DNA of 64,000 bases from an uncultured delta proteobacterium (GTDB lineage Bacteria > Myxococcota_A > Polyangia > Polyangiales > B10-G4). Position numbers: made by a program. Location: positions 1 through 64,000 of the forward strand of contig CAVSGI010000009.1 of the NCBI GenBank assembly GCA_963727445.1. Reading direction: 5' to 3'. Every line of letters begins with the position of its first letter. Within the stretch, counting starts at the first letter, position 1. Positions 30,001-33,000 of the stretch are shown here, in pieces.

Positions 30001-33000
30001 GGACGCGGACGTCGATGGGCGCGTGCTCGACGACGGCGGCGCCGACGCCGCCGCGATGCCCCCGACCTCCGACGGTTGCGGATGCACCGCGCCTGGCCGC
30101 CACGCCCCGACCCCAATGCCGTTCGCCCTCGCCCTCGCCCTCCTCGCCCTCCGCAAGGCACGGGGACGCTAGATTGACAATTGACTTTCGCCCTCGCCGC
30201 GCCCGCGATCCGCGGATGCGCCCCGCACGGGGACGCTAGATTGACAATTGACTTTCGCCCTCGCCGCGCCCGCGATCCGCGGATGCGCCCCCGCGAAAGT
30301 CAATTGTCAATCTAGCGTCCCCAAAGAGAAAAGGCGCCCCCGGATGAATCTTCATCTGAGGGCGCCTTCGCTGCGTTCTACTCTCGCGTTCCCGAGCTTT
30401 CCGCTCGCGTGCCGGGGAGTAGCTTGTCGAGGCCGTCCGAGCCGACGACGAGGCGAACCTCGTCGATCTCGCCCGCGATCTCCTTCAGCGACTCGAGCTC
30501 CTTGAGACGCATCAGGGTCGGGTTGTCGGCCATGACCTTGGCGGTGTTCGCCATCGAGCGGGTCGCCGCAGCCTCCTCGCGACGGAGGATGACGTTGGCG
30601 GCCGCGGCCTTTTCGGCCTCGATGACGCGGTTGAGCAGGACCTTCATGTCGCCCGGGAGGACGACGTCCTTCACACCGACGCTCAGGATCTGCGCGCCGA
30701 TCGCCTTCGCCTTCGGCGAGACGGCCTCCGCGAGGAAGCGCGTCATCGCGTCGCGACCCTCGAGGAGCTCGTCGAGGGTGACGCCGGCGACGTAGTCGCG
30801 CGCAGCGAGCTGCGCGGCGAGATAGATCACGTCACGGGCGTGATCGACCGTGCTGGCCAGCTTCATCGGGTCCGTGATGCGGTACTCGACGCTGAGGGTC
30901 AGGCGTAGGGTCACCTTGTCACGGGTCATGAGATCCTGACCCGCGATGGCGATCTGCGCCCGGCGCATGTCGATGTTCACGACCCGCACCGCGCCGTCCT
31001 CGGACCACAGGTCGTAGCGACCCGGGCCCAGGGAGCCGACCAGGCGACCCTCGACGTAGTGGAGACCGCGCTCGTGCTCCTGAACGGTTGCACGGACGAT
31101 CTCCGAACGCGGGATCACCTTCAGCGTCTGCTCGTCGAAGCTGGGAAGCGGCTTCTCGGTGGAGAGTCGCTTCAGCTCCACCGACGGGTCCACCGTCCAG
31201 TACCAGCGGGTGCCGGCGTGGAGGTACGTCATGGCGACGCCGTCGCGGAAGAGCAGACCCCGCTCGTTCGAGGCGAGATGCACCTCGGCGAACCAGTCGT
31301 CGGGCAGAATGGCGCGCACTTCCGGCAGCGCCTTGAAGACGAGCGCGTCCGTATCGAAACGCTGCTCGGTGTAGCGCGTGCCCCAGACTAGGTGACGGCC
31401 CGGACCGAGGGCCCGGATCGGCAGCCCATCCTTGAACAGGACGACACGCTCGTTCAGCTCGACCTTGATCTTCGTGAGCATGGTTCAGGCTCCTCGTGGT
31501 TGGTTGTTGATGGGGACGCTAGGTTGACAATTGACTTTCGCCCTCGCGGCGCCCGCGATCCGCGGAGGCGCACCGGCGAAAGTCAATTGTCAACCTAGCG
31601 TCCCCGAAGAGGGCGGCGCTCGGGTGGGTCGTCCCCGACACGAGACCTCGCGCAGCGGGGGAGGGCGCCGAGGTGGGAAGGTCGGTCGGTCCCACTCCCG
31701 ATGGGAGCGGGCGCTTCGCGACGTTCGCGCATCGGCGCGCGCCCAGGCCGGGCGTGTCTCGTGCTTCGCCCACCCGCGCGCGCTTGCACGCGCGAGCGAA
31801 CGAAAGGGACGGTGAACACCTCCGCGCCTGTGTGATTCGGCTTTTGGACCGAACTAGCGTGATGGTTTTTCAGACCATCTGTTCACCGCTTAGGACCGTT
31901 ATGGTTACGGCCTCCTGCGTAACGGGCAGGTGGTGTTGTCAAGACTGACGCTCTACCAAGCTGAGCTACGCGCCCGCATGGGTGGGCGCGGTGGGATTCG
32001 AACCCACGACATTCAGTTTCCGACAGGTCACTCCGCTGGCGGAACACGTCCACCGGATACACGACGAAGACGAAGCCCATCGTGCACGGCGACGCACCGG
32101 CATGATGCCTCTTGCCAGGCGATGTGGTGCAAACGGGAGGATTCGAACCTCCACTGAGCCGGGTCTGAGCCGACCGCCTCTGCCGAGTTGGGCTACGTTT
32201 GCGAAATTCGGATGGACGGTACCGACGCGCGATCGACGGAGCGCCGTGCGCCGGGGAGCGTCGTGAGCGCGCCGCTCTCCGGAGCGTCGAGGGCGGAGAG
32301 GAGCGCGTTCAGCGCCACCATGGTCCGCATGAGGAAGGGCATGAAGTAGGGCAGCTTGAATCGCTCCATCAAGAGCTGCTTCTTCATGGTGCCGGCCGCG
32401 TCCACAATCTCGCGTACGCGCTCCGAGCCGATCGCTTCGCCCCGAATCACCCCGCCGATGGCGATCCACTGCACCTCGGCGATCGCCTCGGCCGCGCGCC
32501 GATTGCCGATCTCGAGCGCGGCGTCCACGGCGCGGACGAAGCGCTCGCGGTCCGACGCGAGCGCGGCATCCCGCAAGTCGCCGAACGCCTCTCGCTGAGC
32601 GTCGTCGAAACGAAAGACGCTCCCGAAGTCGAGCACGCCTACCGTGCCGTCCTCCCGAAAGAAGAAGTTGCCGGCGTGGGCGTCAGCGTAGAGCACGCCG
32701 TGGTCGGCCAACGCCGACAGGACGACCCGGCGCACGGCGGCGGCCTGATTTCGCCGCACGTCCGCGTCGAAGGCCCGCGCGTGATCGACGGTCACCCCGT
32801 CCAGGAAGGTCGTCGACAAGACGCGGGCGCTCGAGACGTCGAGGGCGACCGCGGGGATCTCCAGATCCGGATCGCCCTCGATGAGCGCGGCGAAGGTCGC
32901 CATGTTGTCGGCTTCGCGCTCGTAATCGAGCTCGGCCAGAAAGCCCGACTGGATTCGGCCGATGAAGTCGCCGCTCTGTCCGCGCGGCATGAAGAACGCG

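What a model noticed while it worked through the whole genome (the two positions that open the first line are those of the whole stretch)
30378..32030. Second Y RNA closes the tRNA array in front of a slipin (SPFH) gene and carries a 23S helix-69 copy
Between the last tRNA of the C9 array and the slipin gene lies an unannotated YrlA-like RNA (about 31945-32020, minus). The Y RNA-slipin pair, usually embedded in tRNA arrays and without a Ro60 gene in the fetched flanks, is conserved in Polyangiales, so the array is part of an RNA-repair-type locus. Here the RNA is followed by a 23-of-24-nt copy of 23S rRNA helix 69 (31889-31912).
Evidence so far: Rfam YrlA 45.9 bits, E 1e-8. Slipin orthologues in 33 of 200 relatives; a T-arm/hairpin/D-arm element lies upstream in 21 of 30 loci, 21 of the 23 closest; tRNA genes in 14 of the 30 loci, rtcB in one, the HNH gene in three. 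The H69 match is the best short rRNA match outside the rRNA operon (E 0.02 genome-wide, call 106); the genus-mate keeps the stem with another loop.
(Added by a program. Inside this text positions count along the whole contig: contig position 1 is position 1 of the stretch shown here. "Call 12" and the like, gene names such as g00115 and contig names such as C1 are that model's own, and its searches are not shown. The text may have been shortened before it was handed on; [...] marks where a part breaks off. The agent that wrote the report below was given it as the finding of a first reader that could run no searches.)

Follow-up and report, generated by a model that had tools for sequence, protein, structure and literature searches.

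The report
tRNA-shaped RNA with extra anticodon loops
At the end of a spare-tRNA cluster, just before a stomatin-like gene, lies a tRNA-shaped RNA trailed by small hairpins that copy tRNA anticodon loops (and here one ribosomal RNA hairpin); they change between species and may be baits for toxins that cut tRNA.

Summary
In detail: a circularly permuted tRNA-like RNA (32017-31944, minus) precedes slipin, and the 23/24-nt 23S helix-69 copy is the best rRNA match among about 37,000 genome tiles. The reading needs two changes. (1) It is not a Ro-binding Y RNA by definition: YrlA score is below cut-off, the GNCGAAN0-1G motif is in 1 of 54 loci, and 34 of 48 slipin-bearing relatives showed no Ro gene. 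The genome's other RNA (C6) sits before a Pfam-invisible protein with a predicted Ro60 fold and has its own motifs. (2) H69 is limited to this genus, but it fills one slot of a conserved, apparently undescribed feature: free-standing anticodon stem-loop mimics after the D arm (39 in 34 of 54 loci; 2.5 expected). Loop frame is kept (C32 U33 A37 A38), triplets vary (25 kinds), stems are not copied from tRNAs. The Band-7/tRNA-like RNA pairing was predicted in 2016, and this scan noted slipin-linked tRNA-like RNAs on other DNA. Best guess (0.45): a translation-stress RNA displaying baits for anticodon nucleases. No expression or binding data.

The parts
30378..31481 (-). Slipin gene: three N-terminal beta repeats, SPFH domain, long helix; no membrane helix in the model
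   Evidence: Band_7; model pLDDT 85; closest folds stomatin/HflK/QmcA, weaker long match to major vault protein; repeats
30162..30328 (.). REP-like palindromes (one whole, one partial) downstream of slipin
   Evidence: Same repeat elsewhere in the genome, 61 exact arms
31512..31605 (.). REP-like palindrome inserted between the RNA and the slipin start; absent in the genus-mate
31613..31835 (-). GC-rich folded 3' part of the RNA/leader; first 12 nt identical in the genus-mate; true 3' end unknown
31836..31853 (-). Hairpin 4: 6-bp stem, 6-nt loop containing CCA then AAA (imperfect Trp-like anticodon loop)
31861..31879 (-). Hairpin 3: 6-bp stem, 7-nt loop CUGAAAA, identical to the loop of a tRNA-Phe of this genome; stem unrelated
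31889..31912 (-). Hairpin 2: 23-of-24-nt copy of 23S helix 69 (6-bp stem, 7-nt loop; the change is in the loop, at U1915 by recalled E. coli numbering)
   Evidence: the genus-mate keeps both arms
31914..31930 (-). Hairpin 1: 5-bp stem, 7-nt loop with GUU (Asn-like; C at position 33)
31944..32017 (-). Permuted tRNA-like core: 5' strand 32017-32013, V loop, T arm 32007-31991, 7-bp acceptor hairpin 31990-31969 closed by an 8-nt loop, D arm 31966-31950, strand 31948-31944 pairing with 32017-32013
   Evidence: Rfam YrlA partial match; parse; covariation in 48 loci
32022..32100 (-). 5' scaffold with the GUGUUCCG-type motif (32047-32040) shared by slipin-linked RNAs of both orders
   Evidence: Motif upstream in 30 of 54 permuted and 15 of 34 canonical loci versus 10 and 3 in control stretches
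32125..35272 (-). Accessory tRNA array (Leu, Glu, Gly, Ser, Arg-GCG, Asp, Pro, one with a 6-nt loop; Trp at relaxed threshold)
32193..33498 (-). ABC1-type kinase gene (two overlapping frames) inside the array
   Evidence: homologue in only 1 other of 54 loci
34338..34856 (-). HNH endonuclease gene inside the array
   Evidence: homologue in 13 of 54 permuted loci including this one
35423..35610 (-). Possible promoter box, 31-codon leader ORF and terminator-like hairpin with U run ahead of the array (weak)
   Evidence: Read from sequence and fold; not called by the consensus scan

Best explanation
The element is a member of a slipin-associated non-coding RNA family (the YrlA-order form of the predicted Band-7-associated tRNA-like RNA), about 300 nt or longer, at the 3' end of an accessory tRNA array. 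SHOWN: a tRNA elbow (T and D arms, 7-bp closed acceptor) kept by compensatory change; behind it up to three or four short hairpins whose 7-nt loops keep the anticodon-loop frame while the triplet differs between relatives; in this genus one slot holds a 23S helix-69 look-alike. INFERRED: array, RNA and slipin are co-transcribed when translation is impaired (by analogy with the Anabaena TrcR regulon); the stable elbow serves as a scaffold, probably bound by the soluble slipin oligomer; the non-decoding loops act as expendable baits that are bound or cut by anticodon nucleases and related ribotoxins in place of real tRNA and rRNA, while RtcB, encoded elsewhere, repairs the real targets. The changing triplets would track the toxins that each lineage meets.
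For: 39 anticodon-consensus hairpins in 34 of 54 dereplicated loci versus 2.5 +/- 1.6 in 200 shuffles (max 8), 3 in the next 110 nt, 0.049 per 110 nt genome-wide and 2 in 47 stretches behind ordinary tRNAs. Without any loop filter, stems of 5 bp or more close 7-nt loops 49 times versus 4.6 expected; C32 41/49, U33 38/49, A37 37/49, A38 31/49; 25 triplets. Free-standing ones alone: 32 in 27 of 54 loci, 20 triplets, A34 avoided (3 of 32 versus 23 of 64 at 35/36) as in bacterial tRNAs. Among 38 pairs with slipins at least 70% identical the triplet is the same in 11%. Stems are no closer to cognate than to other tRNA stems, while positions 32/37/38 follow the cognate housekeeping tRNA (2.15 versus 1.65 of 3). 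Canonical-order loci carry them too (13 in 10 of 34; 0.9 expected), and loci fetched later show them again. RtcB in 47 of 48 slipin-bearing relatives versus 148 of 252 others. Anabaena slipin alr0740, rtcB, HNH and the tRNA array share one repressor (PMC10272220); array tRNAs are cleaved and were proposed as sponges (PMC8421152); YrlA was proposed as a nuclease inhibitor (PMC7790460); isolated stem-loops can be nuclease substrates (PMC13692257). RNA and slipin are split by a 0.9-kb insert in L060 and by a REP here, which fits action in trans.
Against: No expression, cleavage or binding data. Loci are related, so the p-values overstate. Varying triplets also fit relaxed constraint on a shape-only motif; the cognate-loop signal is absent against array tRNAs (1.87 versus 1.90). 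20 of 54 loci have no strict-consensus hairpin. Many anticodon nucleases need modified bases or the whole tRNA (own knowledge). One search found no paper that names helix 69 as a toxin target in its listing, and H69 occurs in only 2 of 301 genomes. Binding of the RNA by slipin is untested.
Confidence: 0.45

Rival explanations
1. Repair scaffold: RNA and slipin form a particle that helps RtcB or a modification enzyme; the hairpins are read by shape (U-turn loop) only, so the triplet drifts and helix 69 fits because it has the same shape.
For: This is the role predicted for Band-7 with b7a-tRNA (as cited in 10.1101/312249); RtcB co-occurrence; loop frame conserved, triplet free; H69 has a 7-nt loop but not the anticodon consensus.
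Against: A34 avoidance and cognate 32/37/38 bases suggest real anticodons are mimicked; rtcB is rarely adjacent.
Confidence: 0.22
2. Cis sensor: the RNA is the leader of the slipin message; cutting or binding of a loop by a ribotoxin changes processing, stability or translation of slipin, or releases cyclic-phosphate fragments as an alarm signal.
For: Fixed position 222-628 nt before the start codon; sigma-54-like sites just upstream in 5 of 27 stand-alone loci; tRNA fragments with cyclic phosphate activate RtcR (PMC7790460).
Against: Terminator-like hairpins in only 5 of 54 leaders and no uniform occlusion of the ribosome-binding site; intact RNA cut off from slipin in L060; REP inserted here; no RtcR family match in this 85.6% complete genome.
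Confidence: 0.15
3. Classical Y RNA: it tethers a Ro60 protein, here the divergent Ro-fold protein on C6, to an effector.
For: YrlA topology; a Ro-fold gene exists in the genome and lies 6-7 kb from slipin in two relatives.
Against: GNCGAAN0-1G in 1 of 54 loci; the motif CCYACACGCA of RNAs beside the divergent Ro gene in 0 of 88 slipin leaders; no Ro gene of either kind found in 34 of 48 slipin-bearing relatives.
Confidence: 0.06
4. Permuted pre-tRNA: ligation into a circle and opening of the acceptor loop give a working tRNA.
For: 19 of 55 loci have a perfect anticodon arm in the canonical place; acceptor stems are mostly 7 bp, some loops start with NCCA; M. smegmatis YrlA is cut by RNase P (PMC4201824).
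Against: This locus and 15 others close the anticodon stem by 5'/3' pairing with no loop in place; the free hairpins and H69 are unexplained; triplet and acceptor identity do not travel together on inspection.
Confidence: 0.05
5. Relics: the core is a fused remnant of two tandem tRNA genes and the hairpins are debris of deleted array tRNAs, with H69 a chance insertion scar.
For: The YrlA model also rings on tandem tRNA pairs at 27-33 bits; array tRNAs here are odd; H69 is genus-limited.
Against: Acceptor hairpin 97% paired with two-sided change in 7 of 7 pairs; stems unrelated to cognate tRNA stems; present in loci with no array; the same stem carries five different triplets in L114, L117, L118, L120, L121.
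Confidence: 0.05

Closest known systems
[quoted passage not shown]
   Same: tRNA-like RNA beside a Band-7 gene in RtcB-type context; the citing paper says YrlA is occasionally the partner. 35 of 122 loci here have this canonical order and share the 5' motif.
   Different: Permuted order dominates near this genome; rtcB rarely adjacent; extra free anticodon hairpins with changing triplets and an rRNA hairpin copy are not mentioned in the passages read. The original paper and its supplements could not be seen.
YrlA bacterial Y RNA (Rfam RF02553; PMC4201824)
   Same: T arm before D arm, acceptor closed as a hairpin, anticodon stem made by 5'/3' pairing in this locus.
   Different: No GNCGAAN0-1G motif, no Ro gene within 4 kb, score below cut-off; YrlA lacks an anticodon loop, whereas this family carries one or more.
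Stress-induced tRNA L-array and TrcR regulon of Anabaena PCC 7120 (PMC8421152, PMC10272220)
   Same: Accessory tRNA array with an HNH gene; slipin and rtcB co-regulated under translational stress; sponge role proposed for array tRNAs.
   Different: Those are full, mostly aminoacylated tRNAs; no Y-like RNA is named in the passages searched; the regulator here is unknown.
Ro60/Rsr with its Y RNAs
   Same: The C6 gene family has a full-length Ro60 fold in the model and its own permuted RNAs.
   Different: It is a separate locus with different RNA motifs and is missed by Pfam TROVE.
Vault particle (major vault protein plus vault RNA)
   Same: Soluble SPFH-type protein with N-terminal beta repeats and a small RNA; long but loose structural match (Z 10-12, rmsd about 10 A).
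   Different: Stomatin is the closer fold (Z 16-17); slipin is half the length; no cage or RNA binding shown.

Membership tests
YrlA Y RNA | tRNA-like domain: T arm, closed acceptor stem, D arm | tested here: met
YrlA Y RNA | GNCGAAN0-1G Ro-binding motif near the 5' end | tested here: not met
   Absent here; 1 of 54 loci; definition from PMC4201824
YrlA Y RNA | Within about 4 kb of a Ro60 gene on the same strand | tested here: not met
   No TROVE match in the genome; divergent Ro gene is on another contig
YrlA Y RNA | Rfam RF02553 gathering score 69 bits | tested here: not met
   45.9 bits; relatives 33-42 bits
YrlA Y RNA | Bound by Ro60 in cells | not testable with these tools
   needs pull-down
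b7a-tRNA / Band-7 system | tRNA-like RNA adjacent to a Band-7 gene | tested here: met
b7a-tRNA / Band-7 system | RNA strongly resembles an authentic (canonical-order) tRNA | tested here: not met
   Permuted here; canonical in 35 of 122 related loci; the YrlA-for-b7a swap is allowed for in the citing paper
b7a-tRNA / Band-7 system | rtcB encoded adjacent | tested here: not met
   rtcB is on C14; adjacent in 3 of 54 permuted loci and 6 of 34 canonical ones
b7a-tRNA / Band-7 system | Full published definition and alignment | not testable with these tools
   Paper not held
Stress-induced tRNA L-array locus | Accessory tRNA cluster with HNH gene | tested here: met
   the array here is short
Stress-induced tRNA L-array locus | Induced by translational stress | not testable with these tools
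   needs RNA data
Ro60/TROVE family (C6 gene family, tested on intact orthologue P0001) | Helical ring plus C-terminal vWA domain | tested here: met
   Predicted model: the 11 best Foldseek hits are Ro60/TROVE; Z 15.0, 434 aligned, rmsd 5.1
Ro60/TROVE family (C6 gene family, tested on intact orthologue P0001) | Pfam TROVE match | tested here: not met
Major vault protein family (slipin) | MVP-type N-terminal repeats and cage assembly | tested here: inconclusive
   Loose long match only; N-terminal part was not folded alone

The most novel reading that the evidence does not exclude
A widespread bacterial RNA works as a changeable 'bait rack': a tRNA-elbow scaffold, housed with a soluble SPFH protein, displays several anticodon loops and sometimes a captured rRNA hairpin (helix 69), and lineages swap these baits to match the ribotoxins they face, giving a diversifying RNA defence (or tripwire) for the translation machinery. 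The baits would then read out which RNA sites toxins attack, and would name helix 69 as such a site.
Probability: 0.3. Interest if true: 0.9.

Novelty: new variant of a known kind. Interest (0 to 1): 0.7.

Why it matters
The roles of bacterial Y-like RNAs, of Band-7 proteins in RNA-repair loci and of accessory tRNA arrays are open questions; decoy roles were suggested but had no handle. A family whose members carry isolated anticodon loops with varying triplets makes the idea directly testable: change three bases and ask whether protection moves to another tRNA. It also separates two RNA families that Rfam lumps under YrlA, and points to a Ro60-fold family (at least 1422 database proteins) that Pfam misses.

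Tried and rejected
H69 as a conserved motif: rejected; pattern search of 301 genomes gave this genome, the genus-mate, four true rRNAs and one chance match in a coding region. Other rRNA fragments in leaders: of 125 leaders only this one scores 21; next are 17 and 16; none of 18 further loci has a 14-nt rRNA word. H69 as an assembly chimera: unlikely because the genus-mate keeps both arms; public contigs did not bridge the site (one covers 31902-32066, only 11 nt of it). Expression: no RNA holder listed. Hairpins as copies of cognate tRNA arms: rejected. The 'upstream' control contains real tRNAs and T loops and was not used. GOLLD, ROOL or other Rfam families: none at E up to 5 in the window region or at 0.01 in 11 loci. 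Viral contigs: only 4 loci. RtcR in the genome: no match. Promoter/terminator scan: nothing relevant. Whole-RNA alignment of 14 loci was too gapped for a covariation test outside the core. Atlas search of the slipin N-terminus gave only unnamed or Band_7 clusters. No complex prediction was run. Not-in-print claim rests on searches (open-licence papers only).
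Full report
Observation. The slipin ORF (30378-31481, minus; 367 aa) matches Pfam Band_7. Upstream, Rfam YrlA scores 45.9 bits at 31946-32015, covering model positions 23-85 of 114 and staying under the cut-off of 69. The 24-mer at 31889-31912 has one mismatch to the genome's 23S gene and no other match with up to five mismatches. Its score of 21 was not approached in 5000 shuffles (maximum 17) and is the best of about 37,000 tiles of non-rRNA genome. Eight tRNA genes and an HNH gene lie upstream on the same strand.

Data set. Slipin orthologues were found in 48 of 300 relatives of the order and 40 of 400 genomes of the phylum; named hits are titled Myxococcota, Polyangiales and others. 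I fetched wide flanks for 40 of the 48, 23 further phylum loci, the best 80 of 537 metagenome loci, 4 viral loci and 12 genome loci, dropping five as duplicates or partial copies. Of 122 loci with at least 600 nt upstream, 53 had the permuted core, 35 a canonical-order core, 29 one arm only and 5 none by strict pattern. The statistics use the 56 permuted loci with at least 400 nt upstream, reduced to 54 by removing two near-duplicates, and 34 of 37 canonical loci. Eighteen loci fetched later were only inspected. Loci are kin; p-values are descriptive.

The core. In 48 aligned loci (those with acceptor regions up to 26 nt) the T stem is 99.6%, the acceptor hairpin 97.3% and the D stem 95.3% paired, with two-sided changes in 20 of 21 pairs and 0 of 500 shuffles as high; slid controls give 35-47%. 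The anticodon arm comes in two forms: a perfect 5'/3' helix as in YrlA in 16 loci including this one, a perfect complete stem-loop in 18, both in 1, neither perfect in 20 of 55. A 5' motif is shared with canonical-order loci (30 of 54 and 15 of 34, against 10 and 3 in control stretches), so the RNA starts near 32100 and both orders look like one family; earlier scan notes on other genomes had suggested a larger RNA.

Is it a Y RNA? YrlA is defined by a GNCGAAN0-1G motif and a Ro60 gene within about 4 kb (PMC4201824, passages). The motif is in 1 of 54 loci. Pfam TROVE is not found in this genome (85.6% complete) and is found in 7 of the 48 slipin-bearing relatives. However, the gene behind the other YrlA hit (C6:449127-449232) belongs to a family whose intact member folds, in a model of pLDDT 84, like Ro60 over its whole length. 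That family occurs in 15 of 301 genomes, 7 of them among the 48; in this assembly the gene is in two frames, as is rtcB, which suggests assembly indels. RNAs before these Ro-fold genes carry their own motifs, one of which is in 0 of 88 slipin leaders and the other in 3. So the C6 RNA is the likely Y RNA, and the RNA here is a slipin-type RNA of the same shape. In 34 of 48 relatives neither Ro query found a gene.

Behind the D arm the window has four hairpins in a row: a 5-bp stem with a GUU loop, the H69 copy, a 6-bp stem with the exact tRNA-Phe loop, and an imperfect CCA hairpin. Across 54 loci, the 110 nt after the D arm hold 39 hairpins with the anticodon-loop consensus in 34 loci, against 2.5 +/- 1.6 in shuffles and 3 in the next 110 nt; the genome background predicts 2.6, and 47 stretches behind ordinary tRNAs hold 2. 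With no loop filter, 7-nt loops on stems of at least 5 bp number 49 against 4.6 expected, with C32, U33, A37 and A38 in 41, 38, 37 and 31 of 49 and 25 different triplets. Excluding the canonical position, 32 remain in 27 loci, with 20 triplets and A34 in only 3. Close relatives differ: L120 and L121 have 92% identical slipins, the same stem and different triplets, and 11% of 38 pairs above 70% identity share the triplet. Stems are not closer to cognate tRNA stems (3.07 versus 3.21 of 10), whereas positions 32, 37 and 38 follow the cognate housekeeping tRNA of this genome (2.15 versus 1.65 of 3) but not pooled array tRNAs (1.87 versus 1.90). Canonical-order loci have 13 such hairpins in 10 of 34 loci, 0.9 expected. 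Against: 20 of 54 loci have no strict-consensus hairpin.

Helix 69. It is confined to this genus among 301 genomes: the genus-mate keeps both arms with a changed loop centre, two further relatives have a similar stem start with a CAA-type loop in the same slot, and no other leader has a comparable rRNA match. The simplest history is one capture from rRNA in the ancestor of the genus, tolerated or kept because a 6-bp stem with a 7-nt loop fits the slot, with later change in the loop as in the other hairpins. It is a real oddity, but one event.

Context. Twelve of 29 permuted loci with at least 3 kb upstream have three or more tRNA genes, 13 of 54 have the HNH gene and 3 of 54 rtcB. RtcB is in 47 of 48 slipin-bearing relatives and 148 of 252 others (that background tally includes G122, which is flagged unpublished); size and kinship confound this. 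In Anabaena the slipin alr0740, rtcB, the HNH gene and the tRNA array are released together from TrcR under translational stress (PMC10272220, passages), some array tRNAs are cleaved and a sponge role was proposed (PMC8421152, passages). The slipin model shows three beta repeats, an SPFH domain and a long helix with no membrane helix; stomatin is the closest fold and major vault protein a looser long match. The RNA is intact but 0.9 kb away from slipin in L060, terminators are rare (5 of 54), and a REP-like repeat separates RNA and start codon here.

Mechanism. I favour baits for anticodon nucleases displayed on a stable tRNA elbow (0.45). Shown: structure, conservation, loop statistics, gene context. 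Inferred: stress induction, slipin binding, cleavage or binding by toxins. A competitive-inhibitor role was proposed for YrlA, which has no loop (PMC7790460, abstract and Discussion), and isolated anticodon stem-loops can be cut by at least one nuclease (PMC13692257, passages). Rivals: shape-only repair scaffold (0.22), cis sensor (0.15), Ro ligand (0.06), permuted pre-tRNA (0.05), relics (0.05).

Prior art and novelty. The Band-7/tRNA-like RNA pairing, including occasional YrlA, was predicted by Burroughs and Aravind 2016, which I saw only as cited in bioRxiv 10.1101/312249 (passages and Discussion); the paper and its supplements were not held and may bear on novelty. PMC6514570 (passages) and bioRxiv 10.1101/872010 (passages) added nothing on this RNA. 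Nine searches of open papers listed none that describes extra anticodon hairpins on such an RNA. Earlier notes of this scan describe slipin-linked tRNA-like RNAs in at least 8 other genomes; the lines shown do not mention the loop array, and one note proposes anticodon-arm decoys in phage RNAs. E. coli numbering of helix 69 is recalled. Verdict: new variant of a known (predicted) kind; interest 0.7.

Noticed in passing
L196:6249-7995 (G000:C6:447249-448995, minus); intact orthologue P0001: A vWA-ended protein family missed by Pfam TROVE has a full-length Ro60 fold in the model and is preceded by permuted tRNA-like RNAs with their own conserved motifs, often in tandem (L199-L202, L205, L208, L211).
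   Followed up: partly
L211 / G000:C6:449127-449232: The C6 RNA has a complete anticodon arm with a CUA (amber-type) triplet.
   Followed up: no
window 30162-30328, 31512-31605 and elsewhere in G000: REP-like palindrome of about 95 nt with conserved arms and a variable middle; 61 exact arms on 8 contigs.
   Followed up: partly
window 35423-35610 (minus); similar layouts before arrays in L050, L053, L056: Promoter-like box, short ORF and terminator-like hairpin ahead of the tRNA array, suggestive of attenuation; not called by the consensus scan.
   Followed up: partly
L197:6932-8141 (rtcB), L196 (vWA gene), window 32193-33498 (ABC1 kinase): Three genes are each in two frames, suggesting indel errors in the assembly; single-base oddities such as the 6-nt-loop tRNA at 35199-35272 may be errors too.
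   Followed up: no
window 34134-34209 and 32125-32202: Array tRNAs are unusual: Arg with GCG anticodon and Leu(CAG) without a long variable arm.
   Followed up: no
L080, L082, L083, L100, L050, L067: Sigma-54-like promoter sequences just upstream of stand-alone RNAs or of arrays.
   Followed up: partly
L116, L117, L143: Anticodon-like hairpins also occur upstream of the core in some loci.
   Followed up: no
L073: A close relative of L072 has lost the T arm, acceptor and most of the D arm by an internal deletion, with flanks intact.
   Followed up: no
window 30381-31481: Slipin's N-terminal beta repeats vary in number among orthologues (longer forms in L124-L129, L132) and give a loose structural match to major vault protein.
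   Followed up: partly
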